The notes: generated by a model not told the origin, from the letters alone. A stretch of DNA of 64,000 nucleotides from an uncultured Candidatus Saccharibacteria bacterium (GCA_964460325.1 CAYWPI010000001.1:11105-75104); one strand, 5' to 3'. Shown: positions 380 to 55,023, numbered from the stretch's first letter. Program-made: numbers and translations.

Positions 380-3301
380 TTAAATAATAAAATTAATAAG
401 TCGATTCGATACAAAAATAACTTTCTTGGGAGTGGCACTGAGCCATTTTTTTGTTTCTTCGCGTCCTGTCGCTAATTTCTCCGCATCGGCTTGTGAGATG
501 CCCATTGGTGCCGAAACTTTATCGCGCACTTTTCCATTCACCTGAATAATAAGCTCAAAAGCATCTTCAACAATTAATTTTGCGTCATAAGCTGGCCACT
601 CGCTGACGTGGATACTTGGAGAAGCTTTTAGCTTTAAGCTGTTAGCTGTTAGCTTCTGCCAGAGCTCCTCGGTAAGGTGCGGGGCAAATGGTGCGAGAAT
701 CTGCAGAAATGCTTTCCAGATATCGCTTGGCATTGATTCTTTACTCGCCGCTTCGTTTACAAACACCATCATCGAACTGATTGCGGTGTTAAACGACATT
801 GATTCGATATCCTCTGAGACCTTCTTGATCGTCTTGTGCAGTGATTTTTCCAGGTCAGGGTTCTCCCCTTTTTTCACAACCTTTTCAATTCCGATACGAT
901 AGACGCGCTCCAAGAAACGAGTGCAGCCTAAAATGCCGTGCGGGTCCCAACTGATCGCTTGATTAAACGGTCCCATAAACATCTCATACATGCGGAGTGC
1001 ATCAGCACCAAACTCCGCGATGATATCGTCCGGATTAATGACATTGCCGAGCGACTTACTCATCTTTGAACCGTCCGCGGCGAGCACCATGCCGTGGCTG
1101 GTTCGTTTCTGATACGGCTCGCTTGTTGGCACGAGGCCAAGGTCGCGCAGGAACATATTCCAAAAACGGGAATATAAAAGGTGAAGCACGGTGTGCTCCA
1201 TGCCGCCGTTGTACCAATCCACCGGCATAAAGTATTCGAGCGCCTTCTTGCTCGCAAACTCCTTTTTATTTTTCGGGTCGAGATAGCGCAAGAAGTACCA
1301 TGAAGACCCTGCCCAGTTTGGCATAGTGTCGGTCTCGCGCTTGGCCGGCTTCTTGCACTTCGGGCACTTCACATTCACAAAGCTCTCAATGGCTGAAAGC
1401 GGACTTTCGCCCGTGTCGGTCGGCTGATACTTTTCCACTTTTGGCAGCTTCACGGGCAAGTCTTTTTCTGGAACAGCTACCCAGCCGTCGGTTTCACACT
1501 TAATGAGCGGAATCGGCTCACCCCAATAGCGCTGACGAGAAAATACCCAGTCACGGAGTTTATATTTCACTGTTTTCTTACCGCCGGTAATTTTAATCGC
1601 CTCATCTATAGAGATGAGTGGCTTATTCACTATCGGTAATTTAAACTTTTCAGCGAAAGCTCGGTCACGCTCGTCGTGCTGCGGCACCGCCATAATCGCT
1701 CCCGTTCCATACGTCGAAAGAACATAGTCGGCCACCCATACCGGAATCTCTTGCTTGGTCGCCGGGTTAATCGCCTTGATGCCCTTCAGCTCCACGCCCG
1801 TCTTTCCTTGTCCTGAGCCCGCCGAAGGATCTTTTTCGAAAGCAAGGCGCTCCTCCTCGGGTTTGTTCTTTACGCTCGCGATATACTTTTGAACTTCTCC
1901 AAAGTTAGAGATGAGAGGTCGGAGGTCGGAGATTAGTTTATGCTCAGGAGCAAGCACCATATAGGTTGCTCCAAACAATGTGTCGGGACGGGTAGTAAAT
2001 ACCTTCAGAGAAGGCACTACTTCCTGTAATAGTTCCGGGAATGCGTTTGTACCACCCATGTCGGCTGGCATAAAATGCCCATAATTAGGAAATTGGATCA
2101 ATCTTCCTCCAAGTTCCGCTGCATAAAGCCTTGCGCTTTTTTGATGTCTTTCTTTGTCCTGCTCACCAATAAAAACAACCACTTCGTCGCAGTACTCTTT
2201 GATGTTTTTATCAATAATAAAATCAGACCATAGCCGCTTTTCGGGCGTTGCATCATCGGCAGGTATTTTCGCGGCAGCAACAAGAACCAGCTTCGCAATA
2301 TTTTTTTTACTTTCGCTCAGCCATCGAACTAAAAATGCACCGCCACAGCTGTGCCCGATAAGCACGGTTTGTGCATCGATATTTAGTTTTTCAATTTCAG
2401 CCTTCCATTCTTCATAGTTTGGGCGCCATGCATTCGGCATGACAGGGTTATAAACCTGAATACCTTCTGTAGTGAGTTTTCGGCGCATCCAAGAGATCCA
2501 GTGTTTATCACTATCAGTCTCAACGTTAATAAATGATTCTTTATTCGGTGGACAGCCATGGATCATTACACATTTCGTGATCTTTTTTGTGGCAATCTTA
2601 AAATCAATCTCCACACCTTCGCTCCGGCCAATCCAATTCGTCTGTTGGGTAACCGCTTGGGGAATATAATCTAAACCCTCCAAACCCTTGAGGAGCTTAT
2701 CAGCATACTTCGTGATGGCAATCATCCACTGCTCCTTCTCGCGCTTTTCAACCGGGCCACCGCAGCGATCGCACACGCCGCCGGCCGCCTCTTCGTTAGC
2801 CAGGCCAATCTTATCCTTGGGGCACCAGTTGATATATGTTTTTGCCTTATATGCCAATCCTTTCTCAAAAAACTTCAAAAACATCCACTGCGTCCACTTA
2901 TAATATTCTGGGTCAGTGGTATCGATTTCTCTCTCCCAATCAAAGCCAAAACCCATCGCTTTAAGCTGACGACGGAAGTTGTCAGTATTCTGCTTGGTCG
3001 CCACCGCAGGGTCGATACCCATCTTTATGGCATAGTTTTCGGTCGGCAACCCGAACGCATCCCAGCCGATGGGATATAAAACATTAAAGCCCTCCATACG
3101 GCGTTTGCGCGTGATGATGTCCATCGCAGTCTGCGAACGGACGTGCCCAACGTGCATACCGGCGCCAGACGGATATGGAAACTCAATTAGGCCGTAAAAC
3201 TTCGGCTTTTTACCCCCCGTCTTGGCTTGATAGAGCTTTTTCTTTTCCCAAACGGATTGCCAATGCTTCTCGAAAGTTTTTCTGGCCTCGTTATAATTCA
3301 T
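380..3301 (-). CDS. leuS: Leucyl-tRNA synthetase with an extra inserted alpha/beta-hydrolase (RBBP9/YdeN-like) domain ahead of the CP1 editing domain
   Basis: 973-aa ORF. HIGH motif (HVGH), KMSKS motif, CP1 editing motifs TTRPDTLFGAT and AVPQHDERD. Extra ~188-aa segment (residues ~238-425) carries GHSCGG and YGHF motifs. Confidence 0.9.
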   Translation of the reverse strand: MNYNEARKTFEKHWQSVWEKKKLYQAKTGGKKPKFYGLIEFPYPSGAGMHVGHVRSQTAMDIITRKRRMEGFNVLYPIGWDAFGLPTENYAIKMGIDPAVATKQNTDNFRRQLKAMGFGFDWEREIDTTDPEYYKWTQWMFLKFFEKGLAYKAKTYINWCPKDKIGLANEEAAGGVCDRCGGPVEKREKEQWMIAITKYADKLLKGLEGLDYIPQAVTQQTNWIGRSEGVEIDFKIATKKITKCVMIHGCPPNKESFINVETDSDKHWISWMRRKLTTEGIQVYNPVMPNAWRPNYEEWKAEIEKLNIDAQTVLIGHSCGGAFLVRWLSESKKNIAKLVLVAAAKIPADDATPEKRLWSDFIIDKNIKEYCDEVVVFIGEQDKERHQKSARLYAAELGGRLIQFPNYGHFMPADMGGTNAFPELLQEVVPSLKVFTTRPDTLFGATYMVLAPEHKLISDLRPLISNFGEVQKYIASVKNKPEEERLAFEKDPSAGSGQGKTGVELKGIKAINPATKQEIPVWVADYVLSTYGTGAIMAVPQHDERDRAFAEKFKLPIVNKPLISIDEAIKITGGKKTVKYKLRDWVFSRQRYWGEPIPLIKCETDGWVAVPEKDLPVKLPKVEKYQPTDTGESPLSAIESFVNVKCPKCKKPAKRETDTMPNWAGSSWYFLRYLDPKNKKEFASKKALEYFMPVDWYNGGMEHTVLHLLYSRFWNMFLRDLGLVPTSEPYQKRTSHGMVLAADGSKMSKSLGNVINPDDIIAEFGADALRMYEMFMGPFNQAISWDPHGILGCTRFLERVYRIGIEKVVKKGENPDLEKSLHKTIKKVSEDIESMSFNTAISSMMVFVNEAASKESMPSDIWKAFLQILAPFAPHLTEELWQKLTANSLKLKASPSIHVSEWPAYDAKLIVEDAFELIIQVNGKVRDKVSAPMGISQADAEKLATGREETKKWLSATPKKVIFVSNRLINFII

Positions 3302-3366
3302 GTTAGATAGAAATAAGAAGTATGAAGTAGGAATTATGAATTGAATACATACTTAATTCTTGATTC

Positions 3367-15449: not shown

Positions 15450-17255
15450 ATGAAATACATACTGTACGCAAGAAAATCAACAGAAGAAGACGACAGACAA
15501 GTCTTGAGTATTCAGGCGCAACTCGCAGAGTTGCGAGAATTTGCCGCCAAAGAACACCTTGAAATTGTTGCTTCCTTTCAGGAAGCCAAAACCGCCAAAG
15601 AGCCCGGGCGAATTAAATTCGCAGAAATGGTGGCAATGATTGAATCCAAGAAAGCAGACGGAATCATAAGCTGGCACCCCGATCGTCTTGCTCGCAATTC
15701 CGTAGATGGAGGCAAGATTATTCATTTGATCGATCGCGGCTTGATCAAGTCATTAAAATTTCCCACCTTCTGGTTTGAGGCCACCCCACAAGGTGTGTTC
15801 ATGCTCAATATCGCCTTTGGACAGAGTAAATATTTTGTAGATAATTTGCGAGAGAATGTGAAGCGGGGACTACGACAGAAGATCAGAAACGGCATCTGGC
15901 CTGGCTGGGCTCCGGTGGGGTATATTAATAATCCACGAACGCGAGATATTGATGTTGATAGTGAAAAAGCTCCAAAAGTGAAGAAGTTGTTTGAGATGTA
16001 CGCCACCGGAGCATACACACTAAGTTCTCTCGCAAATTGGTGCGTGGAAAATAATCTCAAGGGCAACAGGGAGAAGAAAATATCAATCAGCAATCTGCAG
16101 AGTATTCTACAAAATATTTTCTACGTTGGCCTCATGAGATATCGTGGGGAAATTTTCGAAGGCAAGCACGAGCCACTCATCTCAAAGAAACTTTTTGATG
16201 AAGTCCAAAAAGCGATGAAAAACCGAGGAAAACAGAAACACGTTCGTAAACATCACTTTGCTTTTCTTGGCCTACTCAAATGCGCTTCGTGCGGTTGCTC
16301 CATCACCGGCGAACGTCAGAAGGGTCACAACTATTATCGCTGCACCAAAAAGAAAGGCCCATGCCAAGAAAAGCATTATCTTCGAGAAGAAGATTTATTA
16401 GCTCAAATCAAAAGCATTCTTCAAAAAGTTTCTTTGGGAAGCCACGACACTGAAAGAGTTTTGGCGGCGCTCGCAGGCGAGGAGGCGGAGGCAAAAGAAT
16501 ACTCTCAAAATGAAGTAGGGTTATTAAAATCAAAACTGACAGAAATAGAAGCCAAACTCTCCCGCCTCCTCGACCTGTATCTTGCGAGCGAAATATCCCT
16601 TAGCAAAGAGGAGTTCGCCGCCAAAAAAGAAAGCCTTGTCTTGCAAAAGGCAGAATTAGCTCAGAAAATTAATGATATTGAGCAAAAAGGAGTGTCGTGG
16701 CTCGAACCGGCTCGTGAGTTCGTTCTATCCTTGAATCAAGCCGCGAAACTGCTTGAGAATGGGAACCCAGAATCATTGCCACCATTTCTCAAAGCCATCG
16801 GCTCGAACCACACCCTTCAAAACCGACAAGTCGGTTTTGAGCTGAAACCGCCGTACCAACAGCTCGCCGAGCGCCGACAAAGTCGGCGCGAGGCGTTGAC
16901 ATCTTCTGACTTGTGCCCGGGACAGGAGTCGAACCTGCATGCCTTGCGGCGCTACCACCTCAAGGTAGTGCGTCTGCCATTTCGCCACCCGGGCAAACTT
17001 GCATTAACAATCTCGACGCTTGCAATACAAGGTCGGGACTCCGACCCGGTCATAGCGTCGGATCTGACAACTAATAACTTACAACAAGCAACAAGAACTT
17101 TCAAATCAAAACCGCCCTTGCGGGCGGCAATGAGTTATTTTTCTTTTGTGTCAGCCTCTTTTGCTTCAGCCGGCTTGGTGGCTGCCTTTTTGTCGTTACC
17201 ACGCTCAGCAGACATCTTACGACGAATCGCCTTCCTGCTAATATCTCGGATGTAA
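15450..17255 (+). CDS. Large serine recombinase; the ORF has no in-frame stop and reads through IR-B and tRNA-Leu, so it may be a pseudogene or carry a non-native 3' end
   Basis: YARKST catalytic-serine motif at the N-terminus, resolvase domain, recombinase domain, zinc ribbon CASCGCS...YYRC and a coiled coil. The native end is probably near ~16845. Confidence 0.75.
   Translation: MKYILYARKSTEEDDRQVLSIQAQLAELREFAAKEHLEIVASFQEAKTAKEPGRIKFAEMVAMIESKKADGIISWHPDRLARNSVDGGKIIHLIDRGLIKSLKFPTFWFEATPQGVFMLNIAFGQSKYFVDNLRENVKRGLRQKIRNGIWPGWAPVGYINNPRTRDIDVDSEKAPKVKKLFEMYATGAYTLSSLANWCVENNLKGNREKKISISNLQSILQNIFYVGLMRYRGEIFEGKHEPLISKKLFDEVQKAMKNRGKQKHVRKHHFAFLGLLKCASCGCSITGERQKGHNYYRCTKKKGPCQEKHYLREEDLLAQIKSILQKVSLGSHDTERVLAALAGEEAEAKEYSQNEVGLLKSKLTEIEAKLSRLLDLYLASEISLSKEEFAAKKESLVLQKAELAQKINDIEQKGVSWLEPAREFVLSLNQAAKLLENGNPESLPPFLKAIGSNHTLQNRQVGFELKPPYQQLAERRQSRREALTSSDLCPGQESNLHALRRYHLKVVRLPFRHPGKLALTISTLAIQGRDSDPVIASDLTTNNLQQATRTFKSKPPLRAAMSYFSFVSASFASAGLVAAFLSLPRSADILRRIAFLLISRM
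16845..16917. repeat. IR-B right arm; its last 4 nt overlap the 3' end of tRNA-Leu
   Basis: Reverse complement of 15334-15406. Confidence 0.85.
16914..16994 (-). tRNA. tRNA-Leu(GAG)
   Basis: Manual fold: acceptor GCCCGGG, anticodon loop TTGAGGT, long variable arm, T-loop GGTTCGACTCC. Confidence 0.8.
17100..17128 (-). terminator. rplS terminator
   Basis: Hairpin CCGCCCTTGCGGGCGG followed by a T-run on the minus strand. Confidence 0.55.
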
Positions 17256-17653: not shown

Positions 17654-18805
17654 ATGAAAACCCTTATCGACGTCCGCCTGCTTGGACGCGGCGCTCATTC
17701 TGGCATCCCCGTATTTGCCAAGGAGACTACCGATCATCTCTTGAGCCAAGGCAAAGATGCATTTGAACTCCTTTATGCCGGCATTAAGAAAAGTCCCTTG
17801 CCGGTATCGTGGCGCACAAACCCTCGCGTCACAATACGCGATTGGCGCATCGCCAACAAAGCGCTTGATCTTGCCAGTACGTTGTTTAACGCGCCAGATA
17901 TCAGCCGTCACACAAAGGCGGATATCATCTTCAGCCCGCATTTCCATAATCTCAACAAGGGCTCTTTGCCACGCGTACTAACCATTCACGATCTTTCGTT
18001 TGCTCACTATCCCACCTTTTTTTCTCCCAAACAACGACTATGGCATTCCATGCAACATTGGCAAAAGCAGATCCAAGAGGCGGATCATCTGATTGCCGTT
18101 TCGCGTTTCACCAAAGAAGACATCATCCAAACATTAGGTATCAAGCCAGAAAAGATATCAGTTGTGTACCCGGGAATCAGCCGCGAATTTCACCCGCTTG
18201 ATCCGCATGACAAGCACCTGCTTCTTTTTCAAAAGAAACACGAGATACACACTCCTTATTTCTTATATTTCGGGGCGCTTGAAGCCCGTAAAAATGTCGT
18301 GCACGTGATACAGGCCTTTGATTTACTGAAAACCAATCCAAAATACAAGGACTACCGATTAATTCTTGCCGGAAGTCCGGGTCACCGTGCGCACGAAATC
18401 GCGCGCGCCGCTTCTCAAAGCCGATCTGCCGCCGCGATCTCCATCATCTCCCGCATTACTGACGAAGAACGAATACTGCTTTATAATGGAGCAGTAGCAT
18501 TTGTGTGTACGTCCTTTTTTGAAGGTTTTGGATTTCCCGTTCTTGAAGCCCAGGCATGCGGCATCCCCGTTATTGCGAGCAATCGCACCACGTTTATTGA
18601 AACGCTTGCGGGTAGCGCGCCACTTGTCAATCCGTGGAGGCCAGCTGAACTCGCCGACGCACTCATAAATCTAGCGACCGATGGGGCCGTTCGCGCGCGC
18701 GCCATCAACCTTGGAACGCAAAACGCCTCGCGATTTAACTGGAGCGATACCGCCAAACATGTCCACGCCATACTTATAAAAACCCATCGTTCATTCTATG
18801 GATAA
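17654..18805 (+). CDS. Glycosyltransferase family 1 (GT4-like)
   Basis: C-terminal GT1 motifs (FGxxxxE...EGFG) and Rossmann-like halves. Confidence 0.7.
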   Translation: MKTLIDVRLLGRGAHSGIPVFAKETTDHLLSQGKDAFELLYAGIKKSPLPVSWRTNPRVTIRDWRIANKALDLASTLFNAPDISRHTKADIIFSPHFHNLNKGSLPRVLTIHDLSFAHYPTFFSPKQRLWHSMQHWQKQIQEADHLIAVSRFTKEDIIQTLGIKPEKISVVYPGISREFHPLDPHDKHLLLFQKKHEIHTPYFLYFGALEARKNVVHVIQAFDLLKTNPKYKDYRLILAGSPGHRAHEIARAASQSRSAAAISIISRITDEERILLYNGAVAFVCTSFFEGFGFPVLEAQACGIPVIASNRTTFIETLAGSAPLVNPWRPAELADALINLATDGAVRARAINLGTQNASRFNWSDTAKHVHAILIKTHRSFYG

Positions 18806-20807
18806 TCGCAAAGATCTCATGGCGGATATCTACCACTCAACCGGACGGCCCGTCGCCCGCCTTTCGCGCGCACCACAACCTTTGCCTCCTGAACCACCTC
18901 GACAGCGAAAAAAAATTATCGCTATTGTCATTGCCATACCTCTGCTTGCGACCATTCTTTTTTATGGCACGCGCGGATTGGTAGTCAAAAAGCTTGCCGC
19001 CCATTCTGCCGAACTCATTGAAGAGCGTATCGCCCAGGCAAAACAAGCACTTATCGCCTTTGATGTGCATAAAGCTCATGACGCGTTCCTTGATATCAAA
19101 CGCATTGTTATCGATCTTGAAAGCGAAGCCTCGCGTTATGGGCTGCTTGGCTTGGCTGAAATTGCCGGAACCTTTTCTTCTCAGCTTGCCGCCGCTCCGC
19201 AGGCGCTTTCCATTATGCACCGACTTTCAGACAGTGTGCTTTCCATTATTGAAACTTCAGAACATATTAAAGCCAATGCGTTTGATCTCATGGTAAACCG
19301 ACAGGGCAAGACGCTCATCACGCATCTTACCAGCCTGCAAGAGAAGGTAGCCAGCCTCGGAGAGATTTTAGAAGAGATGAAAGAGAACGCTTCTTCTCTT
19401 GATTATCCGGTTGGCGATGACGTGTTGGCGTTTCGCGCTCAACTGTATCGCACCGAGCAACTACTTGGCGCGGCCATTGACTGGCTCTCAGACACCAATC
19501 ACGTGGCGGTGATGTTCATGAATCCAAGCGAAATACGACCAGGCGGCGGATTTCCCGGTAGTTATGCGGGTATCACCGTAAGCCGTGGAAATGTGGAAAA
19601 GATTGAGGTAAAAGACATCTATGACCCCGATGGCCAACTTGATATCGCAATCACTCCCCCGAGACAACTGCAACTCATCACCAGTACCTGGGGAGCGCGT
19701 GACGCGAATTGGTTTTTTGATTTTCCCACGTCTGCTCGAAAAATCCTTTATTTCTTAAATGAATCGAAAATATATCGCGAGCAAGATTTGACATTCAGCG
19801 CCCTGCTCGCCATTCATGTCAATGCAGTAAGCGATATTCTTTCAGTCACTGGACCAATTGATCTACCCGAATATCACCTTACCCTCACTGACAAGAATTT
19901 TTTGCATGAAGTGCAGCGTGAGGTACGTAGCGGATTAGATCGGACTGTTGGGGAACCAAAACGCATATTAAAAATACTCACCCCCCTTCTCCTAGAACGA
20001 ATCAGCTTATTAAACGCCGCGCAAAAAGGCGAATTAATTAAACTCATACGACAACGTTTTGCCACTAAAGATATGTTGGTGTATATCGAAGACGCAGTAA
20101 TGCAGACCTACCTTGAAGAGCTTGCGGTAGCCGGCGAGGTGCACCGGGCGCGAGACGGGACCCTCAATGAATACCTTGCCGTAGTAAACGCGAATATTGG
20201 CGGGGGTAAGACCGATGCCGTCATGCGCCAAAGCATCACCCTCAAAAGCCGCATCGACCTTGAGGGAAAAATAAATAACACGCTCACCATTCGTCGCACC
20301 CATAACGGAAAATCAAGCGCCGATACTTGGTACCAAACGACCAACAAAAACTTCTTGCAGATATTCACGCCCCGAGGCAGCAACGCCGTTTTTGCCCGTG
20401 GCGCCGATCCATTGCCAACCATCCCGCAGCCAGGTAACACCGACCATAAAACCGATCGCGACGTTGCGGCAATCGAAAACTCCGTCGAACATCTTGGCGA
20501 ATTTAATCTTAATCAAACGCTCGCGTTCAATAAAACTGTTTTTGCCGGCTGGTTTAATACCGCGCCCGGCGCTACCAAAACATTTGAGCTTCAGTATATC
20601 AATCCGCAAAAGATAAACTACGGTGGCACCACCGATTATGTGTTTGTGTTTGAAAAACAACCAGGTATTGAAACAGCGCTTTCAATCACTATTGATGCTC
20701 CGCCGGAATATAAATGGAAAGAAGAAAACAGCGCCACTTACGCATATGAAACTAGCTCAGCACCTGGTCGCCTTGTTGTGCCACTAACTCTTGTCCCAAT
20801 CCGATAG
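18798..20807 (+). CDS. Large membrane-anchored hypothetical protein (possibly DUF4012-like)
   Basis: N-terminal transmembrane segment. 669 aa. GGGFPGSYAG motif. Confidence 0.4.
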   Translation: MDNRKDLMADIYHSTGRPVARLSRAPQPLPPEPPRQRKKIIAIVIAIPLLATILFYGTRGLVVKKLAAHSAELIEERIAQAKQALIAFDVHKAHDAFLDIKRIVIDLESEASRYGLLGLAEIAGTFSSQLAAAPQALSIMHRLSDSVLSIIETSEHIKANAFDLMVNRQGKTLITHLTSLQEKVASLGEILEEMKENASSLDYPVGDDVLAFRAQLYRTEQLLGAAIDWLSDTNHVAVMFMNPSEIRPGGGFPGSYAGITVSRGNVEKIEVKDIYDPDGQLDIAITPPRQLQLITSTWGARDANWFFDFPTSARKILYFLNESKIYREQDLTFSALLAIHVNAVSDILSVTGPIDLPEYHLTLTDKNFLHEVQREVRSGLDRTVGEPKRILKILTPLLLERISLLNAAQKGELIKLIRQRFATKDMLVYIEDAVMQTYLEELAVAGEVHRARDGTLNEYLAVVNANIGGGKTDAVMRQSITLKSRIDLEGKINNTLTIRRTHNGKSSADTWYQTTNKNFLQIFTPRGSNAVFARGADPLPTIPQPGNTDHKTDRDVAAIENSVEHLGEFNLNQTLAFNKTVFAGWFNTAPGATKTFELQYINPQKINYGGTTDYVFVFEKQPGIETALSITIDAPPEYKWKEENSATYAYETSSAPGRLVVPLTLVPIR

Positions 20808-42687: not shown

Positions 42688-45156
42688 ATGCCAATCATCT
42701 GGGGGATAATCACATTAATCAGTTGTATTGGTTTTATTGGTTTTATTGTTTTTTTTCTTATCCTTAGCCGTTTTCGGCAGCGAGGTGAACTCTCGCATTC
42801 GCTTGGCCTTGCCCTACTGCGCGTCCAATTGCCTCGCGCCCAAAAAGAAGAAGACAAAGGGGGCATGAGATCAACCGCGAACGATCTTCGAGAAAAGATC
42901 GCGGTTATGGAACAGGTGTATTCGCAGTTTGCCAACATCACCGAACACGGCCTGCACGCCTGGTTTTATGGCACTCCGTTCTTTTCTCTTGAAATTGTTG
43001 TTCCGCATGTGGGGCAAGAGGTCATTTTTTATTGTGCCGTACCCCGCAAATATGCCAGCGCCACCGAAAAGCTTATTCAGGGCGTATATCCAGACGCCAC
43101 CATCGAACCCGTGAAGGATTACACTATTTTCCAACCGGAAAGCAGTGTTTCGGCGGCCTATGCGCGCGGAAAAAGCAAGTTTTTGCCACTTAAGACATAT
43201 CAAACCATGGATGCAGATCCCCTAGGCAGCATTATTAATGCGTTTTCAAAAGTTTCCCATGATGGAGAAGGATTGGCACTACAAATCGTTTCTCGTCGCG
43301 CCGAAAGTCTTTGGAACACAAGGCTCATCCGACTCACTCGGTACTTGCGCGAAGGCAAGCCGCTGCACCGCGCATTAAAGGAAGCCAACAAATCGGAACT
43401 GCTTCGCGCGGCGCAGGGCAATAAAAGCGAGGAAAAAAGAAAACAGGAGGAGTATGAAAAACAAGCGGTGAATGAAACGCTTGTCGATATGGTTAATAAA
43501 AAAGCTCAGAAAATATTATTCGAGACTAACATTCGCATTGTCGCCGCGGCGAAAGATAAATCACGCGCCGACACCCTTCTCCAAGAGCTCGCCACGCCAT
43601 TTGCCCAATATATGATCGGTGACACCAATGGCATTACGTTTTCTAAAGTGAGTGGTCGTTCTCTGCAGCGGCTTGTCTATCAATTTTCATTCCGTACGCC
43701 CGACCCAGCCACGCCACTCATCCTTTCCTCAGAAGAACTTGCCAGCATCGCGCACCTGCCCAACACCGTCATTGGCGCCAGTCACCTGGCCGCAATCAAG
43801 GCTAAACAAGCACCCGTTCCGTTCAATATCCCCCGTACCGGATTACTGCTTGGCGTGAACACATTCCGGGGCACGGAAACGGAAATTCGGATGGCTGAAG
43901 ATGATCGTGCGCGCCATTTTTACATCATTGGGCAGACCGGGACCGGTAAGACATATTTTATGCGCAACATGATTATTCAAGACATTGAAGCCGGCAATGG
44001 CGTTTGCTTTATTGATCCGCATGGCGACATGTGCGAAGACATTCTGGGGACCATTCCCGCCAGCCGCATTGAAGACGTGATCTATTTTAACCCGGGAGAC
44101 GTGAGCCGTCCGATGGGCATGAACATGCTGGAATACGACCCTAAGTTTCCGGAACAAAAAACATTTATCATCAATGAACTGCTTGAGATTTTCAACAAAC
44201 TTTATGACATGAAAACTGCCGGAGGACCAATGTTTGAACAGTACTTCAGAAACGCCACCGCGCTGGTTATGGATGATATTCCAAGCGGCAACACGCTTTT
44301 AGAAATCAACCGGGTGTTTGTTGATAAAAAATTCAGGGATTATAAGCTTTCGCGCACTACCAACCCGCTGGTAAAAATCTTCTGGCGCGACATTGCCGAA
44401 AAAGCCGGCGGCGAGGCAAGCTTGCAAAACATTGTCCCCTATATCAGCTCCAAGTTTGACTCGTTCCTTTCAAATGAAATCATGCGGCCGATTGTGGCTC
44501 AAGAAAAATCTGCTTTCCGCTTGCGCGATGTGATGGACAGCAAAAAAATACTGCTGGTTAACTTAAGCAAAGGCCGCCTGGGCGAACTGAACAGCTCGCT
44601 TATTGGCCTTATCCTTGTCGGCAAGATTTTGATGGCGGCGTTTTCCCGCGTGGATATCCCAGAAAAAGATCGAAAGAGCTTTTATCTCTATATTGATGAG
44701 TTCCAAAACGTCACCACTAATTCTATTGAAACCATTCTCTCTGAAGCGCGTAAATATAAACTTTCGCTCACCATCGCCCACCAGTTTATCGCCCAGCTTG
44801 AAGAAGACACCTCAAAATCAGTATTCGGCAACGTGGGCTCGATGGCCGCATTCCGTGTTGGCGCAGAAGATGGTGAGTTTTTGGAAAAGCAGTTCGCGCC
44901 TACTTTTAATCAAAATGACCTCATCAATATTGATAATCGCAACTGCTACGTAAAGCTGCTCATTAACGGCACTACGGCTTTGCCGTTTTCCATGCGCACC
45001 GTGGCTGGCAAGCAGACCAATCCCGAACTGGCCGCCAAAGCTAAAGAGTATTCCCGTTTAGCATTTGGAAGAGATCGACAAGATGTTGAAAAAGAAGTAA
45101 TGGAAAAATTCGCGGCACTGGACAAGACGGCACAAAAACCAGTGTCTCCATTTTAA
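42688..45156 (+). CDS. Membrane-anchored P-loop ATPase (TraG/VirD4-like or DUF87/HerA-FtsK-like)
   Basis: N-terminal transmembrane segments, Walker A GQTGTGKT, Walker B LYIDEFQ. 822 aa. Confidence 0.5.
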   Translation: MPIIWGIITLISCIGFIGFIVFFLILSRFRQRGELSHSLGLALLRVQLPRAQKEEDKGGMRSTANDLREKIAVMEQVYSQFANITEHGLHAWFYGTPFFSLEIVVPHVGQEVIFYCAVPRKYASATEKLIQGVYPDATIEPVKDYTIFQPESSVSAAYARGKSKFLPLKTYQTMDADPLGSIINAFSKVSHDGEGLALQIVSRRAESLWNTRLIRLTRYLREGKPLHRALKEANKSELLRAAQGNKSEEKRKQEEYEKQAVNETLVDMVNKKAQKILFETNIRIVAAAKDKSRADTLLQELATPFAQYMIGDTNGITFSKVSGRSLQRLVYQFSFRTPDPATPLILSSEELASIAHLPNTVIGASHLAAIKAKQAPVPFNIPRTGLLLGVNTFRGTETEIRMAEDDRARHFYIIGQTGTGKTYFMRNMIIQDIEAGNGVCFIDPHGDMCEDILGTIPASRIEDVIYFNPGDVSRPMGMNMLEYDPKFPEQKTFIINELLEIFNKLYDMKTAGGPMFEQYFRNATALVMDDIPSGNTLLEINRVFVDKKFRDYKLSRTTNPLVKIFWRDIAEKAGGEASLQNIVPYISSKFDSFLSNEIMRPIVAQEKSAFRLRDVMDSKKILLVNLSKGRLGELNSSLIGLILVGKILMAAFSRVDIPEKDRKSFYLYIDEFQNVTTNSIETILSEARKYKLSLTIAHQFIAQLEEDTSKSVFGNVGSMAAFRVGAEDGEFLEKQFAPTFNQNDLINIDNRNCYVKLLINGTTALPFSMRTVAGKQTNPELAAKAKEYSRLAFGRDRQDVEKEVMEKFAALDKTAQKPVSPF

Positions 45157-50544: not shown

Positions 50545-53500
50545 TTAGTACCCTGCTGACTTAATAATACTCTCCGCTGTCTCATTCGCCGGGCACCTGA
50601 AGCTTTTTGAACCACCACATTTAGTACAATCAACCACTACAACCGGGAGCTGTGTGCAAGTAGCGCCAGCGGTCGCTGGATTATATGTTGCACGTCCTCG
50701 TTCATCAAGAGCATCTGCCAGACCGGGAGTGTATGGGATACCGCGCGAACGCAAAGTCGAGGCAAAATTTTTACATATTGTACATGTTCCCGGCTTCGCT
50801 GGTATATTACCAAACTCACCACCCCTCCCATATATTGTTATCGCACACTTACAACCAGCTCCAACGACCGGTGATGATTGCACAGGAGGCTGCTCTAAGC
50901 AACCACACTTCCCATCTGGCATTACTCCACAACGCCCACCCGCAGAAGTACACTTTTTCTGAGTACAGATTGAATTCTTTGCATTCCTATACTCCGGGGT
51001 CTTTATCGCCTCAGAAATCGGGACACCACCCCACGTCATGTTGCCCGCTCGATCCAGAACGATACCCATTTCATCCGCCTTAACTTCACAGCCTATAGGA
51101 TATTTTAACGACGTTGAAGGCGGTTGCAGTGGCGACTTCGGCTCCCGATAAGGAGTTGTCGGACTTTTAGTTTGCGGAGTTGTAGCTGGACTTCCTCCCG
51201 TCGAACCACCATCTGGCGTGACCGGAGGTTGTGTTGCTGGCGGCGGCGGACTACCACAGGCACATCCATCGCCACTCACAGTTGACTGACAAATACCAGC
51301 GGTACAATTAAGACCCTTCTTTGAACAGGCTGCGCTCGGCGAAACTCCGCCACAATCACCCCATGTTTCTTCAATGGAAATTAAGAAATTAATTTGCGTC
51401 TGAGTTAATCCGGCATCCTCTCCGTTCTCAGTTATTTGCTCTGGAGATGGACAGTTCCCTTTATCGTGGGGGACAAGTTTATCAATAAACTCTTGAGCCC
51501 GCTGAACATTCTCAGGTGAGTATCTAAGACAAGTGTTTACTTTCTCGCCAATCACACCCGGATCAATAACACCAGGGAAGTCAAACGGTTCATCTAAACC
51601 AAGCGGAGGCAAATCAGTTGGCTCACTAGGCTCTGGGGATACAAATGGCGGGTATTCTTCTCCATCCGAAATTTCTGGATCGGCAGGATTGACCGCAGGA
51701 ATATCAGGGAATTCAGAAGAATCAGGCGGTGTTAATGGCGCGCACATACATCCACCGCCGGCACTATTACTGCAAGACCCACCGGATTTGGCACAACTCC
51801 CAGAACATTCTCCCGTCGAACCCTTGCCAGTAACCCAATTCAATAATCTTTCCCAGAAGGTTGTATCATGACACGTATCTCCCGGCTCAAGCACAGGTGC
51901 AGCTGTCGGCGCATCGACTACAGGGGGTTGAGAGTCGTCATTTGAATCTGGCGAGGCGGTCGGGGCAGTAGGGGCTGAAGCTGGCGCAGCTGATCCGTTA
52001 CAGCTGCATGTAATAACATATTTCCCGTTTTGCAAAGTTGGTGATGACGGCGCACACTTCCCAGCAGAACAAGCCTTTGTATCTGTTGAACAAACAGCAC
52101 CTAATGCACCAGAGGCTATATTATCTGCAACAGCCTCTTTTTCCTTTTCCAAACGCTGAGTTTCACTGTTTAAATTCGTAACAAGGCTTGGCACCTGATT
52201 CCTTGCAACCTCAAGCCCACGATTATAATCACCGTTGCCGAGTTGAGTTATTTGTTGATTAATACTAGTAATTGATGCCGTAATTTGATTGAGAAGGTTT
52301 AATTGCTCATCAAGTTTTGCATTACCAACCCGAGTACAAGAACCCGCTTTGTCAGTTCCAACAACAGGCGGAACGGTAGGCACAACAGGAATCGGGGCAG
52401 GTTCGGTCGGTGTTACTGGTACAACAGGAGCAACTGGTTGCTCGCCAGTTGATTGCGGTACTGCTCCTGCTGGCACATTGCCATCACTAGCTCTATCAGG
52501 CGTAGAACCACCACAGCATTCAATTGAATACTGCAAATAACCACTTGCGGTCGTCCGCTTTACCAATACAGCTGGCCCACACTGACCACCTCCAGAGCAT
52601 TGTGCCGCTGGATCGCCGCCGCACATAAAATCTTTCGCGCTCGCCAACGCCTTCACGAGATTGTCATAAGTTGGTTTTATTCTCTGCGCAGCAAACCGCG
52701 CCTGCTCATCAGCTGACATCGACTGGCTTTTTTCACCTAAATACTGATAAAGCGCATTGAGCTCTAATAATGGATCAGTTACTGAAGGTGTAATTGTTTT
52801 TTGACACACTCTGGGCGCAGTTATATTCAAATCAGCACCTTCGGGATTCTGCGGAAGCCCGTCATTATTCCCGAAAATAGTCCCAAACACCTTCGCGCGA
52901 AATGCCGCTGCAAACTTTGATGGAAGGCTTAATATGCTGTCAGATGCTGATGCCGGAGCATCAGCCCCGCTACCACTACCCGCACCAGTCGATCCACCAG
53001 TGCCGGGAGTTGAACCACCTCCGCTAGTACCACCAGACCCAGCCGAACCTCCGTCTTTTACGGAATTCGTAATCCCGCACGCCATAGTCCAGTTGTAATT
53101 CACCTCAACCGCCGCCTCAACATTAACAGTAATCTTAACTGAATCACCCGAACCGCTCTGCTTAGCCTGTGTAACATACGCACCTTCATCACTCGAATCA
53201 TCCCCAGTATAAGTGCAGGCACCAATACTATATGTTAACTCCGTACCACACGGCTTACAGTTAGTCTCCTTCCCGTCATTGGGACACGAAACATCACAGG
53301 CGATAATCTTATTTTTTGCAGCACTCTCTGCATTAGCATTTGCACTCTCACAAGCCGACTTCTGCGCCGCTTCAAGCATTTCTCGAAACTCCCCTTGTAC
53401 GCGATTAATAAATTGCACACCATTTTCATATTGAGTCGTTTTGTTTGCACACTCAGTTCTGCAACTGATAATTGGGTAGGTAGACTGAGGACCGGCAACA

Positions 53501-55023
53501 TTTTCACATACAGTATACGCATCTTCACAAGCACCTGTTCCATGAGTAAGCGTCTGCGAAGCGCTGCCTGACCCCGTTACTGATTCAGCATTGCTTCCAG
53601 TCTTTGTTGTCGCAGGGCATGATGGCCCTTGAGTTGGCTCTGGCACTGGCGAACCAGTCACCTCCTGACATCCACAGGTCGGCACGGTAACTGCCTCATA
53701 TCCTCCCGTATCACCGCCAACCCACCGCCGATCTGATTGAGTTCCCGCAACACAGGTTCCCGCCGCACCACTAGAGGTGGTGCACTCGCCGCCACACTCA
53801 GAACGCTGAGCACACTCATCTCCACCACCAGTTGCCGTTGTGCCACTCGGAAGTTCACTGTCGGGCTTGCCACCAAACACATCATCGAAAAAGGAGGTAA
53901 TGTTTCGTAAAACATTCACGATGCCGTTGGTCACCACGCTAAGAGCGGTTGTGCGAGCATCAGGAACCGTAAAAACACCAACCTGGGTCTCAAGGTCAAC
54001 ACGACCCAACACATTATTGGCTGTCTTCACTGCAATTTCATCAATCAAATCACCCGCTTTTGTAACATGCAGCTCGGTAATGGTTCCTGTTTGAGTTTCG
54101 GCAAAAACTTGTTCCCCAGAAATAGTGGCAAAAACTTGTTCCCCAGAAATAATACGCGGAGCCACTTGGAAAGGAACACAATCAGAGCCGCATGCTTGCT
54201 GATCAGCATAAGCTTCTGCGGTTGTGGGCAATAAGATAACCTGCAACCTTTGTCCACTTACGGGATCCACGGTTTGCGTGTCTGCCGTTACCACATTCGT
54301 TGTTTGAGCGGGCACCCAAATCTGCAAAGCTGATTTCACTTGTGGAACAGAGGCGGCGGGAGCAGTTGTTACGCGTTGACCGGTTCCTGCATCTGCCGTT
54401 GGCTGCCTATCAATCACCGGTTCAGTTGTTACCCCGCTGGGAAGTTGCGGATCAGAAACAATGGGCGGCAGAGGATCTATAAGCGCTTGAATATTAGGAA
54501 CTTCCACAATTTTCGTCGCTCCGCCGGACACCGCCGAACCGCTCATCCACGCATCGATAAGACTTTTTGCATTTGCCCCCGGATCATATGGCTGGGTAAC
54601 AATACCCGCACCAGATCCCTTCGAATTACTAGGTGGTGTCACTGTTGAACCAGAGCCACCGGCTTGAGTTGCTCCTCCATCGTTACCTGTTACGTTTTGC
54701 GAACCAGAGCCTGATGGCTGAGTATAGCTTGGAAGGTCAGGCGTGAAATGAGGAAGAATCGGCTCTACTTCGAAATAAATACCACCCGGCTCTTGATCAT
54801 TTTTTCGTTCTTCATAAAAACTAGTTCCACTGGTATCCGCCATGTTGCCTCCCGCTCCGCCTTGATACACTTGAGCCAGCTGACTTGAGCCAACGATATC
54901 GGCCGGAATCACTGGGAGCATTCCCGTGACCAAAGCGAGTGCCGCAACCGGAAGCACAAGTCGAACAATATGTCGCATCATTGATATGTAAATAAAGTGT
55001 AAAGATAAAGAAGAGCTCCTCAA
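50545..55023 (-). CDS. Giant secreted Cys-, Gly- and Thr-rich surface protein (1492 aa)
   Basis: Signal peptide or N-terminal transmembrane segment. Numerous Cys-rich segments. Internal 27-nt perfect tandem duplication at ~54098-54151 (ISGEQVFA x2). Confidence 0.65.
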   Translation of the reverse strand: MRSSSLSLHFIYISMMRHIVRLVLPVAALALVTGMLPVIPADIVGSSQLAQVYQGGAGGNMADTSGTSFYEERKNDQEPGGIYFEVEPILPHFTPDLPSYTQPSGSGSQNVTGNDGGATQAGGSGSTVTPPSNSKGSGAGIVTQPYDPGANAKSLIDAWMSGSAVSGGATKIVEVPNIQALIDPLPPIVSDPQLPSGVTTEPVIDRQPTADAGTGQRVTTAPAASVPQVKSALQIWVPAQTTNVVTADTQTVDPVSGQRLQVILLPTTAEAYADQQACGSDCVPFQVAPRIISGEQVFATISGEQVFAETQTGTITELHVTKAGDLIDEIAVKTANNVLGRVDLETQVGVFTVPDARTTALSVVTNGIVNVLRNITSFFDDVFGGKPDSELPSGTTATGGGDECAQRSECGGECTTSSGAAGTCVAGTQSDRRWVGGDTGGYEAVTVPTCGCQEVTGSPVPEPTQGPSCPATTKTGSNAESVTGSGSASQTLTHGTGACEDAYTVCENVAGPQSTYPIISCRTECANKTTQYENGVQFINRVQGEFREMLEAAQKSACESANANAESAAKNKIIACDVSCPNDGKETNCKPCGTELTYSIGACTYTGDDSSDEGAYVTQAKQSGSGDSVKITVNVEAAVEVNYNWTMACGITNSVKDGGSAGSGGTSGGGSTPGTGGSTGAGSGSGADAPASASDSILSLPSKFAAAFRAKVFGTIFGNNDGLPQNPEGADLNITAPRVCQKTITPSVTDPLLELNALYQYLGEKSQSMSADEQARFAAQRIKPTYDNLVKALASAKDFMCGGDPAAQCSGGGQCGPAVLVKRTTASGYLQYSIECCGGSTPDRASDGNVPAGAVPQSTGEQPVAPVVPVTPTEPAPIPVVPTVPPVVGTDKAGSCTRVGNAKLDEQLNLLNQITASITSINQQITQLGNGDYNRGLEVARNQVPSLVTNLNSETQRLEKEKEAVADNIASGALGAVCSTDTKACSAGKCAPSSPTLQNGKYVITCSCNGSAAPASAPTAPTASPDSNDDSQPPVVDAPTAAPVLEPGDTCHDTTFWERLLNWVTGKGSTGECSGSCAKSGGSCSNSAGGGCMCAPLTPPDSSEFPDIPAVNPADPEISDGEEYPPFVSPEPSEPTDLPPLGLDEPFDFPGVIDPGVIGEKVNTCLRYSPENVQRAQEFIDKLVPHDKGNCPSPEQITENGEDAGLTQTQINFLISIEETWGDCGGVSPSAACSKKGLNCTAGICQSTVSGDGCACGSPPPPATQPPVTPDGGSTGGSPATTPQTKSPTTPYREPKSPLQPPSTSLKYPIGCEVKADEMGIVLDRAGNMTWGGVPISEAIKTPEYRNAKNSICTQKKCTSAGGRCGVMPDGKCGCLEQPPVQSSPVVGAGCKCAITIYGRGGEFGNIPAKPGTCTICKNFASTLRSRGIPYTPGLADALDERGRATYNPATAGATCTQLPVVVVDCTKCGGSKSFRCPANETAESIIKSAGY

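What the first reader, a model, noticed from the sequence alone, without database searches (positions are those of the whole stretch)
2027..2590. RBBP9/YdeN-like alpha/beta-hydrolase domain inserted into leucyl-tRNA synthetase ahead of the editing domain
Between the conserved NWIGRSEGVE segment and the CP1 editing-domain motif TTRPDT, LeuRS carries an extra ~188 aa. It contains an IGHSCGG nucleophile elbow and a C-terminal YGHF motif, which is the pattern of the small RBBP9/YdeN serine-hydrolase family. It has no intein features. A serine esterase fused into an aminoacyl-tRNA synthetase could act as an additional aminoacyl-ester (editing or trans-editing-like) hydrolase, or it could be an unrelated moonlighting domain. 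No such LeuRS architecture is known to me.
Basis: partly seen in the sequence, partly recalled or inferred. Interest (0 to 1): 0.7.

Follow-up and report, generated by a model that had tools for sequence, protein, structure and literature searches.

The report
Serine hydrolase nested inside leucyl-tRNA synthetase
A complete small serine-hydrolase enzyme with intact catalytic residues sits in frame inside a surface loop of an essential protein-synthesis enzyme (leucyl-tRNA synthetase) of an uncultivated ultra-small bacterium, and many related bacteria carry similar nested enzymes that the literature I could search does not describe.

Summary
The 973-aa LeuRS (window 380..3301, minus strand) carries a 193-aa insert (aa 238-430, window 2012..2590). 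The insert is an RBBP9/YdeN-type alpha/beta hydrolase: Pfam PF06821 scores 56 bits against a cutoff of 22, the AlphaFold model has pLDDT 93, and Foldseek gives TM about 0.8 to YdeN and RBBP9. The triad Ser318/Asp382/His409 and an HG oxyanion motif are intact. The insert lies inside the first beta-hairpin of the CP1 editing domain, not ahead of the domain. The LeuRS motifs (HIGH, KMSKS, TTRPDT, GTG..HDERD) are intact.

The acquisition looks recent. Orthologues with 86% protein identity (81-82% nucleotide) have 8 residues at this site, and insert GC3 is 0.38 against 0.56 for the host gene.

The architecture is not unique. About 35 of the 120 nearest LeuRS clusters, where named all candidate-phyla-radiation (CPR) bacteria, carry nested Ser_hydrolase domains, at five or more sites across the data. 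Others carry NUDIX, Ham1 or DUF559. The same hydrolase is also nested in UvrB and a glycosyltransferase.

Best reading: an autonomous, active hydrolase riding on LeuRS. A tRNA-editing helper is not supported but not excluded. I found no description in the papers searched.

The parts
380..3301 (-). Leucyl-tRNA synthetase CDS, 973 aa plus stop, one continuous reading frame through the insert
   Evidence: TIGR00396 scores 905 bits against a 548 cutoff. Pfam finds PF00133, PF13603 and PF08264. The full-length AF2 model has pLDDT 85.9 and pTM 0.77.
2012..2590 (-). Nested RBBP9/YdeN-type alpha/beta-hydrolase domain (aa 238-430)
   Evidence: PF06821 scores above its gathering score. AF2 gives pLDDT 93.4. 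Foldseek gives TM ~0.8 to 1uxo and 7oex. It is 43-49% identical over its full length to stand-alone ~190-aa CPR/DPANN proteins. GC3 is 0.378 against 0.563 for the rest of the gene.
2552..2560 (-). HGC motif (aa 248-250), inferred oxyanion-hole HG motif of the hydrolase
   Evidence: H, G and C are invariant in 107 family members. HG is kept in all 20 type-B nested copies and H-G in all 16 type-A nested copies; the Cys varies. The oxyanion-hole role is inferred from general alpha/beta-hydrolase knowledge.
2339..2356 (-). Nucleophile elbow GHSCGG (aa 316-321); catalytic Ser318 at 2348..2350
   Evidence: Aligned to RBBP9 Ser75. The Ser is invariant in 107/107 family members and in all 36 nested copies examined.
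2156..2158 (-). Catalytic acid Asp382
   Evidence: Aligned to RBBP9 Asp138 (counted residue by residue). This family column is E in 100 and D in 3 of 107 members. D or E is present in all nested copies.
2075..2077 (-). Catalytic His409 in the YGHF motif (aa 407-410, 2072..2083)
   Evidence: Aligned to RBBP9 His165. Invariant in 107/107 family members and in all nested copies.
2591..2638 (-). Host strand NWIGRSEGVEIDFKIA (aa 222-237): linker and first strand of the CP1 hairpin, left border of the insert
   Evidence: Alignment with the empty-site orthologues. It is a strand (226-237) in the AF2 model. Nucleotide identity to L001/L002 is 89-92% up to the junction.
1979..2011 (-). Host strand SLKVF plus the threonine-rich editing motif TTRPDT (aa 431-441), right border of the insert
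   Evidence: It aligns to T. thermophilus LeuRS I243-T252. Residues 431-436 form a strand in the AF2 model.
1664..1708 (-). CP1 editing-site motif GTGAIMAVPQHDERD (aa 532-546), intact
3143..3154 (-). HIGH signature (HVGH, aa 50-53) of the synthetic site
1052..1066 (-). KMSKS signature (aa 746-750) of the synthetic site

Best explanation
The segment is a whole stand-alone-type RBBP9/YdeN serine hydrolase gene, without its start and stop codons, inserted in frame into the tip of the first beta-hairpin of the LeuRS CP1 editing domain. The result is one 973-aa polypeptide with two independently folded enzymes. One is a normal LeuRS whose synthetic and editing motifs are untouched. The other is a Ser318/Asp382/His409 hydrolase hanging from a surface loop. 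I infer that the hydrolase works as an autonomous enzyme on small acyl substrates. By analogy with RBBP9 these are most likely aminoacyl or peptidyl groups with a free alpha-amine. I infer that it uses LeuRS only as a permissive, constitutively expressed carrier. The insertion is recent and foreign to this lineage. It is one instance of a recurrent habit of CPR/Patescibacteria in which small hydrolases (Ser_hydrolase, NUDIX, Ham1/ITPase) become nested in loops of large housekeeping proteins, above all LeuRS. Shown: the architecture, fold, catalytic residues, empty site in orthologues, compositional anomaly, and recurrence at several sites and in several hosts. Inferred: catalytic activity, substrate class, independence from LeuRS function, and direction of the event (gain rather than loss).
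For: Identity and integrity of the domain. Whole-gene boundaries: similarity to stand-alone proteins runs from their residue ~3 to ~190. In the full-length model the domain sits between strands 226-237 and 431-436 with linkers of 5 and 2 residues. LeuRS is intact: HIGH, KMSKS, TTRPDT and GTG..HDERD are present, and the equivalog score is far above cutoff. Recent gain: the five nearest LeuRS clusters lack the insert; BLASTP segment identity is 75-85%, 86.5% for P0122 with the insert removed. At DNA level the empty site reads EIDFK-TTAGDA[V/I]R-VFTTRPDT. A GC3 trough of 0.38-0.40 lies exactly over the insert, against 0.51-0.71 in most of the host (falling to 0.44 at its 3' end) and 0.60-0.63 in the empty-site orthologues; Fisher p=4e-6. 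The left flank is 89-92% identical to the orthologues right up to the junction. Function is retained when nested: all 16 'type A' and all 20 'type B' LeuRS-nested copies keep H-G, Ser, acid and His. Not LeuRS-specific: nested copies occur at five or more LeuRS sites, and also in UvrB (P0260) and a GT2 glycosyltransferase (P0243). NUDIX, Ham1 and DUF559 occupy the same LeuRS loops. Nested copies are polyphyletic; many have stand-alone nearest neighbours at 56-70% identity. Substrate analogy: RBBP9 is a serine aminopeptidase that needs a free alpha-amine (PMC8866121).
Against: LeuRS is by far the commonest host: at least 6, and by position probably 11, of the 17 long proteins among the best 150 hits. 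A purely neutral carrier model does not predict that. The window's insert is closest (59-60% identity) to copies nested at a different LeuRS site (P0139, P0209), and no stand-alone protein exceeds 49%. This suggests a LeuRS-resident sublineage with its own derived pocket residues (AAAK instead of APWK, I141, D145), which could reflect co-adaptation with LeuRS. GC3 as low as the insert's occurs in 7% of 193-codon windows of the 64-kb region, mostly in one gene. Only one contig carries this exact protein, and reads could not be checked.
Confidence: 0.6

Rival explanations
1. Cis-acting proofreading helper. The nested serine hydrolase is a second hydrolytic site serving LeuRS. It would deacylate mischarged or unwanted aminoacyl-tRNA(Leu), aminoacyl-adenylate or released aminoacyl esters next to the CP1 editing pocket.
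For: The insert is 5 residues upstream of the TTRPDT editing motif, inside CP1. RBBP9, the only member of this family with biochemistry I could find, requires a free alpha-amine (PMC8866121). It is also reported to hydrolyse the valyl ester valacyclovir, an aminoacyl ester of a nucleoside analogue; I saw only the title of Shenoy 2020, cited in PMC7730578. LeuRS is the predominant host of nested copies. The triad is conserved in every LeuRS-nested copy, including the old, divergent type-B clade. The window's copy belongs to a sublineage seen only inside LeuRS, with altered pocket residues.
Against: The CP1 editing motifs are intact, so no editing function is visibly missing. Orthologues with 86% protein identity lack the domain. 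The domain occurs at five or more LeuRS positions with necessarily different geometry. It also occurs in UvrB and a glycosyltransferase. NUDIX, Ham1 and DUF559, which have no link to aminoacyl esters, occupy the same loops. Most family members are stand-alone 190-aa proteins with no conserved tRNA-related neighbourhood.
Confidence: 0.15
2. Selfish or mobile in-frame element. The hydrolase module is a parasite-like insertion that spreads between permissive loops of conserved essential genes, ecologically like an intein, and persists because precise excision is rare and disruption is lethal. Its enzymatic activity would be irrelevant to the host, or would be used for its own processing.
For: Patchy distribution among close relatives and foreign composition. 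Hosts are conserved housekeeping genes such as LeuRS and UvrB. Boundaries match the whole gene exactly. The nearest relatives sit at another site of other LeuRS genes. A DUF559 (Vsr-like endonuclease) domain occupies the same hairpin in P0236.
Against: There is no Hint/intein match, and no Cys/Ser/Thr...His-Asn splice-junction pattern at the borders (junction sequences). No terminal inverted or direct repeats exceed chance. This insert has no endonuclease. The catalytic triad and HG motif are conserved in all 36 nested copies, including an old clade, which indicates selection for enzymatic function. Stand-alone copies are far more numerous than nested ones.
Confidence: 0.15
3. Artefact. The insert results from a chimeric metagenome assembly or a mis-joined contig, and no such protein exists.
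For: This exact protein is known from a single contig of a single source, and it was not retrievable in the contig index. The composition differs from the flanks.
Against: Both junctions are in frame. The insert starts and ends exactly at the domain borders, at the tip of a beta-hairpin. About 35 independently assembled LeuRS clusters from many samples show the same kind of architecture, including other site-1 type-A inserts (P0127, P0183, P0224). A random chimera would not give this.
Confidence: 0.03

Closest known systems
RBBP9 / YdeN serine hydrolases (Pfam PF06821; PDB 2qs9, 7oex, 1uxo)
   Same: Same fold (Foldseek TM ~0.8). Same Ser-Asp-His triad at aligned positions. Same size (~190 aa). 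The Pfam score is above the gathering score.
   Different: Those proteins are free-standing. This copy is nested inside another enzyme. It belongs to a CPR/DPANN subfamily with invariant HGC and GHSCG motifs. Sequence identity is only 18-24% to the solved structures. The residue aligned to RBBP9 Tyr99 is Ala, and the one aligned to Glu108 is Pro with acidic residues nearby, so substrate recognition may differ.
LeuRS CP1 editing domain (Pfam PF13603), itself a hydrolytic domain inserted into the Rossmann fold
   Same: A hydrolase module nested in LeuRS through a two-strand connection. The new insert makes this a two-level nesting (core > CP1 > hydrolase).
   Different: CP1 has a different fold and uses no serine nucleophile. 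It is universal in LeuRS and is coupled to tRNA translocation. The new domain is sporadic, recently acquired and homologous to free-standing enzymes. A 2026 survey reported PF13603 as an insert only, with zero host events among 213 (PMC13114784). In this protein it is the host.
Inteins in conserved housekeeping proteins
   Same: In-frame, patchily distributed insertions at conserved sites of essential genes (LeuRS, UvrB). Compositionally foreign.
   Different: No Hint domain, splice-junction residues or homing endonuclease in this insert. The insert is a conserved metabolic-type enzyme and presumably stays in the mature protein.
Free-standing trans-editing deacylases (AlaX, YbaK/ProX, Dtd) and synthetases with appended enzyme domains (for example NCBIfam NF040702, IleRS with a GNAT domain, listed)
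   Same: The concept of an extra catalytic module associated with an aminoacyl-tRNA synthetase. Possible action on aminoacyl esters.
   Different: No homology to AlaX, YbaK or Dtd was detected (no such family). The module is inserted internally rather than appended. A link to tRNA is not demonstrated.
Other nested-domain LeuRS proteins of CPR bacteria found here (for example P0127, P0183, P0224 at the same hairpin; P0139, P0209 at the end of CP1; P0216 'Candidatus Kerfeldbacteria')
   Same: Same host and same hydrolase family. Three of them use the same hairpin site. The triad is conserved in all.
   Different: The window's copy is only 38-43% identical to the other site-1 type-A copies, but 59-60% identical to copies at a different site. 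It is the only member of its close LeuRS clade (86% protein identity to the nearest, P0122) that has an insert.

Membership tests
Pfam PF06821 Ser_hydrolase (RBBP9/YdeN) | Profile score above the curated gathering score | tested here: met
   56.2 bits against 22, E=5.5e-15, aa 264-411.
Pfam PF06821 Ser_hydrolase (RBBP9/YdeN) | Compact ~190-aa alpha/beta-hydrolase fold superimposable on YdeN/RBBP9 | tested here: met
   AF2 pLDDT 93.4. Foldseek gives 1uxo TM 0.80/0.83 and 7oex TM 0.80-0.84, E~1e-10.
Pfam PF06821 Ser_hydrolase (RBBP9/YdeN) | GxSxG nucleophile, acidic residue and His at the positions of RBBP9 Ser75/Asp138/His165 | tested here: met
   Ser318, Asp382 and His409 by residue-level alignment. 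Conserved across 107 relatives.
Pfam PF06821 Ser_hydrolase (RBBP9/YdeN) | Serine-dependent hydrolase activity | not testable with these tools
   Needs activity-based probe labelling or esterase/aminopeptidase assays of wild type against S318A.
Bacterial-type leucyl-tRNA synthetase (TIGR00396 leuS_bact) | Equivalog model score above the curated cutoff | tested here: met
   905.3 bits against 548.4.
Bacterial-type leucyl-tRNA synthetase (TIGR00396 leuS_bact) | Class I HIGH and KMSKS signatures | tested here: met
   HVGH at aa 50-53 and KMSKS at aa 746-750.
Bacterial-type leucyl-tRNA synthetase (TIGR00396 leuS_bact) | CP1 editing motifs (threonine-rich TTRPDT; GTG...HD.RD with the conserved Asp) | tested here: met
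   aa 436-441 and aa 532-546, aligned to T. thermophilus LeuRS 247-252 and its GTGAIMAVPAHDQRD motif.
Intein (Hint superfamily) | Hint-domain blocks; Cys/Ser/Thr at insert residue 1; His-Asn followed by Cys/Ser/Thr at the C-terminal junction | tested here: not met
   No Hint or intein family at E<=0.1. The insert begins ..KIA|TKKIT and ends QEVVP|SLKVF. Its fold is an alpha/beta hydrolase.
Transposon / IS-like mobile DNA | Terminal inverted repeats and/or target-site duplication at the borders | tested here: not met
   Only short chance-level repeats, none at both borders.
tRNA trans-editing deacylases (AlaX, YbaK/ProX, Dtd) | Homology to one of these families | tested here: not met
   No such Pfam or NCBIfam match for the protein or the insert.
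tRNA trans-editing deacylases (AlaX, YbaK/ProX, Dtd) | Deacylation of aminoacyl-tRNA | not testable with these tools
   Needs deacylation assays with Leu-, Ile-, Nva- and Met-tRNA(Leu).

The most novel reading that the evidence does not exclude
CPR bacteria have a lineage of serine-hydrolase modules that lives inside LeuRS and relocates in frame between permissive loops of LeuRS and other essential proteins. In LeuRS it may have been co-opted as a second, serine-based hydrolytic site acting on aminoacyl esters (aa-tRNA, aa-AMP or their breakdown products). Together with the nested NUDIX and Ham1 domains, this would make LeuRS a scaffold for a 'sanitising' multi-enzyme. It would be a previously unrecognised mode of synthetase evolution and of domain mobility.
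Probability: 0.15. Interest if true: 0.85.

Novelty: new variant of a known kind. Interest (0 to 1): 0.66.

Why it matters
Aminoacyl-tRNA synthetases are textbook examples of stepwise domain accretion, but I know of no described case of a catalytic enzyme domain nested inside the bacterial LeuRS editing domain. Here a complete serine hydrolase with intact catalytic residues sits in a CP1 hairpin. An empty-site orthologue with 86% protein identity is available, which gives a natural before-and-after pair for testing how an essential enzyme tolerates a 190-aa insertion. The wider pattern found here is that Ser_hydrolase, NUDIX, Ham1 and DUF559 domains are nested at five or more LeuRS sites, and also in UvrB and a glycosyltransferase. 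It suggests that genome-reduced CPR bacteria repeatedly pack small hydrolases into loops of large housekeeping proteins. That bears on how reduced genomes organise genes, on annotation (those deposited proteins that carry a name are called plain LeuRS or tRNA ligase, so the hydrolases go uncounted), and on protein engineering (naturally validated permissive insertion sites in LeuRS). If the hydrolase acts on aminoacyl esters, it would add a new kind of proofreading chemistry to a synthetase.

Tried and rejected
1. Intein or Hint element: rejected. There is no profile match and no junction residues.

2. Transposon-like insertion: no terminal repeats or target duplication.

3. Swap of a LeuRS segment with a foreign allele that already carried the insert: not supported. 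The left flank is 89-92% identical to the empty-site orthologues up to the junction. The first 20 codons after the insert are 82-86% identical and have host-like GC3. A variable patch at codons 451-510 is not contiguous with the insert. The nearest insert relatives sit at another site.

4. Stand-alone paralogue in the window, or in the two orthologous contigs: none found.

5. Gene neighbourhood of stand-alone homologues as a clue to function: no conserved context, and only one case with a NUDIX gene about 1 kb away.

6. Combined alignment of LeuRS plus stand-alone hydrolases for structure prediction (A3): the short proteins were misaligned, so I discarded it and used a LeuRS-only alignment, A4.

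7. The word-indexed homologue search with the insert did not return the long nested proteins, not even the query's own protein. It cannot be used to count nested copies. Nested copies were found through the full-length LeuRS search and the exhaustive representative search.

8. The genome-contig scan did not recover the source genome or close relatives (best 59%), so the organism is placed only as CPR/Patescibacteria, from the names of LeuRS relatives.

9. Distance between Ser318 and the editing or synthetic sites: not obtainable, because model coordinates are not exposed.

10. Literature searches for LeuRS plus Patescibacteria/CPR, NUDIX, domain insertion, and PF06821 found no description of this architecture.
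Full report
**1. What is there**

The minus-strand ORF 380..3301 encodes a 973-aa protein. It is a bacterial-type leucyl-tRNA synthetase. TIGR00396 leuS_bact scores 905 bits against a cutoff of 548. Pfam finds PF00133, the LeuRS editing domain PF13603 and the anticodon-binding domain PF08264.

- NWIGRSEGVE at aa 222-231
- GHSCGG at aa 316-321
- YGHF at aa 407-410
- TTRPDT at aa 436-441

The reported coordinates 2027..2590 correspond to aa 238-425. Alignment with relatives that lack the segment shows the full insert is aa 238-430, window 2012..2590.

**2. Identity of the insert**

- Pfam PF06821 (Ser_hydrolase, the RBBP9/YdeN family) matches aa 264-411 with E=5.5e-15 and 56 bits, against a gathering score of 22.
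- phmmer against PDB sequences finds B. subtilis YdeN (1uxo, E=5e-8) and human RBBP9 (2qs9/7oex/9fcr, E~1e-5).
- The insert modelled alone, with 106 homologues, gives pLDDT 93.4 and pTM 0.90 with a beta-alpha-beta pattern.
- Foldseek against the PDB puts YdeN and RBBP9 on top (TM 0.77-0.84, E~1e-10), well ahead of other alpha/beta hydrolases.
- Residue-level alignment places Ser318, Asp382 and His409 on RBBP9 Ser75, Asp138 and His165.
- In 107 family members the Ser and His are invariant. The acid column is Glu in 100 members and Asp in 3. An N-terminal HGC motif (aa 248-250) is invariant; I infer it is the oxyanion-hole HG motif.
- No intein or Hint family appears even at E<=0.1.

**3. Where exactly it sits**

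It is inside that domain.
- The PF13603 profile match resumes at profile position 22 immediately after the insert.
- Against T. thermophilus LeuRS the site corresponds to residues ~235-243. This is the tip of the hairpin between the entering linker strand and the strand that carries T247/T248/T252.
- In the full-length AlphaFold model (pLDDT 85.9, pTM 0.77) the hydrolase is a folded unit between strands 226-237 and 431-436, with linkers of only 5 and 2 residues.
- The host is otherwise intact: HIGH (HVGH 50-53), KMSKS (746-750), TTRPDT and GTGAIMAVPQHDERD are all present.

**4. It is a recent, foreign acquisition**

- The full-length search shows the five nearest LeuRS clusters (P0122-P0126) have no insert. 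BLASTP segment identity is 75-85%, and 86.5% for P0122 with the insert removed.
- I fetched the DNA of two of them, L001 and L002. Their leuS genes are 81-82% identical to the window's host sequence.
- At this site they read EIDFK-TTAGDA(V/I)R-VFTTRPDT, which is 8 residues where the window has 197.
- Third-position GC is 0.378 in the insert and 0.563 in the rest of the gene. In 96-codon steps a trough of 0.38-0.40 lies exactly over aa 241-432, against 0.51-0.71 in most of the host (0.44 in the last 100 codons). Fisher p=4e-6.
- The insert-free orthologues have GC3 of 0.60-0.63.
- Caveat: windows this low make up 7% of all 193-codon windows in the 64 kb, mostly from one unusual 1492-aa gene.
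- The left flank is 89-92% identical to the orthologues right up to the junction. The first ~20 codons after the insert are 82-86% identical. So the hydrolase alone was inserted, not a larger LeuRS segment.
- No terminal repeats or target duplication are present.
- Parsimony over the close clade, together with the composition, favours gain over repeated precise loss.

**5. It is not unique**

Of the 120 best LeuRS clusters, 33 carry PF06821 in the precomputed Pfam column. My own HMM adds two more, P0166 and P0167. About 25 carry NUDIX (PF00293), four carry Ham1/ITPase (PF01725), and one carries a DUF559/Vsr-like endonuclease. Those that carry an organism name are almost all candidate-phyla-radiation (CPR) bacteria.

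Mapping the domains against LeuRS landmarks gives at least five insertion sites:
- before the NWIG motif
- the NWIG-TTRPDT hairpin (this window's site)
- the end of CP1, between GTGAIM and RDW
- after RDW
- a position near residue 720-880

The hairpin hosts several kinds of insert:
- 'type A' hydrolases that resemble stand-alone proteins (the window, P0127, P0183, and two tandem copies in P0224)
- a divergent 'type B' hydrolase clade (20 clusters examined)
- Ham1 (P0153, P0179, P0225)
- DUF559 (P0236)

An exhaustive search of 1.84 billion representatives with the insert found 1373 relatives at E<=1e-3. The list of the best 150 is mostly ~190-aa stand-alone proteins. Seventeen of them are longer than 400 aa. 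Of the ten I scanned, six are LeuRS, one is UvrB with the hydrolase between its helicase domains (P0260), and one is a GT2 glycosyltransferase with the hydrolase between two glycosyltransferase segments (P0243). Five more of the 17 look like LeuRS by the position of the match. GTDB genomes show nested copies in Doudnabacteria, Peribacteria and Gracilibacteria.

**6. Relationships of the window's copy**

- Its best matches are the nested copies of P0209 and P0139 (59-60% identity). Those sit at the end of CP1, not in the hairpin.
- The other hairpin type-A copies are only 38-43% identical.
- No stand-alone protein exceeds 49%, even in a profile search built from the three sequences. That word-indexed tool does miss long proteins, so it speaks only for stand-alone ones.
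- The three share derived residues at otherwise near-invariant family positions: A54, AAAK instead of APWK, I141 and D145. The W-to-A change falls on the column aligned to RBBP9 Tyr99, a substrate-contacting residue.
- The hosts of these three are 47-59% identical.
- Other nested copies have stand-alone nearest neighbours at 56-70% identity. Nesting has therefore happened many times independently.

**7. Is the nested enzyme functional?**

All 16 type-A and all 20 type-B LeuRS-nested copies keep the H-G motif, the nucleophile Ser in an xHSxG elbow, the acidic residue and the His. Type B is old enough to be only about 25-33% identical to the window's copy. Retention of the whole catalytic apparatus points to purifying selection on hydrolase chemistry in the nested state. 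Activity itself was not testable.

**8. Mechanism: best explanation and rivals**

*Best explanation (confidence 0.6): two enzymes on one chain.* The hydrolase works autonomously on small acyl substrates, and LeuRS is a permissive carrier. The substrate class is inferred from RBBP9. RBBP9 is a serine aminopeptidase that strictly needs a free alpha-amine (PMC8866121). It is also reported as a valacyclovir (valine ester) hydrolase; I saw only the title of Shenoy 2020, cited in PMC7730578.

*Editing-helper reading (0.15).* For it: the biochemistry above, the position inside CP1, and the strong preference for LeuRS as host. Against it:
- the CP1 motifs are intact
- orthologues with 86% protein identity lack the insert
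- the positions within LeuRS are multiple and geometrically different
- non-LeuRS hosts exist
- unrelated NUDIX, Ham1 and DUF559 domains use the same loops

*Selfish-element reading (0.15).* For it: patchiness, foreign composition, essential hosts and exact whole-gene borders. Against it: there are no splicing or mobility motifs, and the catalytic residues are strictly conserved.

*Assembly artefact (0.03).* Very unlikely, given in-frame, domain-exact borders at a hairpin tip and dozens of independent parallels.

**9. Comparison with what is known**

- The domain is a member of PF06821. All three sequence and structure criteria were met; activity was not testable.
- The host is a bona fide bacterial LeuRS.
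- It is not an intein, not a transposon and not a homologue of the known trans-editing factors.
- A 2026 survey of domain insertions lists the LeuRS editing domain as a pure insert that never hosts another domain, with 213 events and zero host events (PMC13114784). Here it is a host.
- Searches of the held literature found no description of hydrolase, NUDIX or Ham1 domains nested in LeuRS.
- Of the deposited proteins, those that carry any name are called 'leucyl-tRNA synthetase', 'leucine--tRNA ligase' or 'class I tRNA ligase family protein'; most carry no name.

**10. Verdict**

This is a real, well-defined feature. The case is a new, recently formed example of an apparently undescribed but widespread CPR architecture.

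Novelty: a new variant of a known kind (a synthetase with an accessory domain, or nested domain insertion). Interest is moderately high (0.66). The natural filled-site and empty-site pair, and the recurrent nesting of several hydrolase families, make the question experimentally tractable. The function is still unknown.

Noticed in passing
P0145, P0153, P0176, P0179, P0225, P0136 (LeuRS relatives): CPR LeuRS proteins of up to 1524 aa carry up to three nested enzyme domains at once. P0179 has Ham1 in the hairpin (250-432), then NUDIX (595-709) and Ser_hydrolase (803-966) at the end of CP1. NUDIX-only and Ham1+NUDIX versions also exist.
   Followed up: partly
P0260 (796 aa) and P0243 (508 aa): The same hydrolase family is nested inside UvrB, between the UvrB_inter and Helicase_C domains. 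It also sits between two glycosyltransferase-2 segments.
   Followed up: partly
P0015, P0020, P0065, P0066, P0085 (~326 aa): These are free-standing fusions of Ser_hydrolase (N-terminal) with a MutT-like NUDIX domain. In one stand-alone locus a NUDIX gene lies about 1 kb downstream (L083-L085). This hints that the two hydrolases work together.
   Followed up: partly
P0236 (949 aa): A DUF559/MTES Vsr-like endonuclease domain (aa 264-381) occupies the same LeuRS hairpin as the window's hydrolase. It may be a homing-endonuclease-like insertion.
   Followed up: no
L005, L006, L007 (Peribacteria, Patescibacteria, Gracilibacteria LeuRS): A divergent hydrolase domain lies upstream of the NWIG motif, which is yet another insertion site.
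   Followed up: no
window 1808..1831 (-), aa 491-498 of LeuRS: There is an extra 8-aa segment, DPSAGSGQ, absent from the close orthologues. It is the only stretch with pLDDT<50. It lies in a patch (codons 451-510) that is only 60-76% identical to the orthologues.
   Followed up: partly
window 50545..55023 (-): A 1492-aa ORF with no Pfam match has the lowest GC3 in the window (0.37). It may be a foreign or fast-evolving large surface protein.
   Followed up: no
window 15450..17255 (+) and 16914..16994 (-): A large serine recombinase ORF has its Resolvase, Recombinase and Zn-ribbon domains only in aa 4-321. Its long ORF tail overlaps a tRNA call on the opposite strand. This may be an integrase next to a tRNA attachment site.
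   Followed up: no
window 3302..3366 versus L001 1680..2162: In the orthologous contig L001 a 160-aa gene with no Pfam hit lies between TatD and leuS. The window has only a 65-bp spacer there.
   Followed up: no
window 42688..45156 (+), 18798..20807 (+): A type IV secretion coupling-protein-like ATPase and a DUF4012 protein are present, in line with CPR-type gene content.
   Followed up: no
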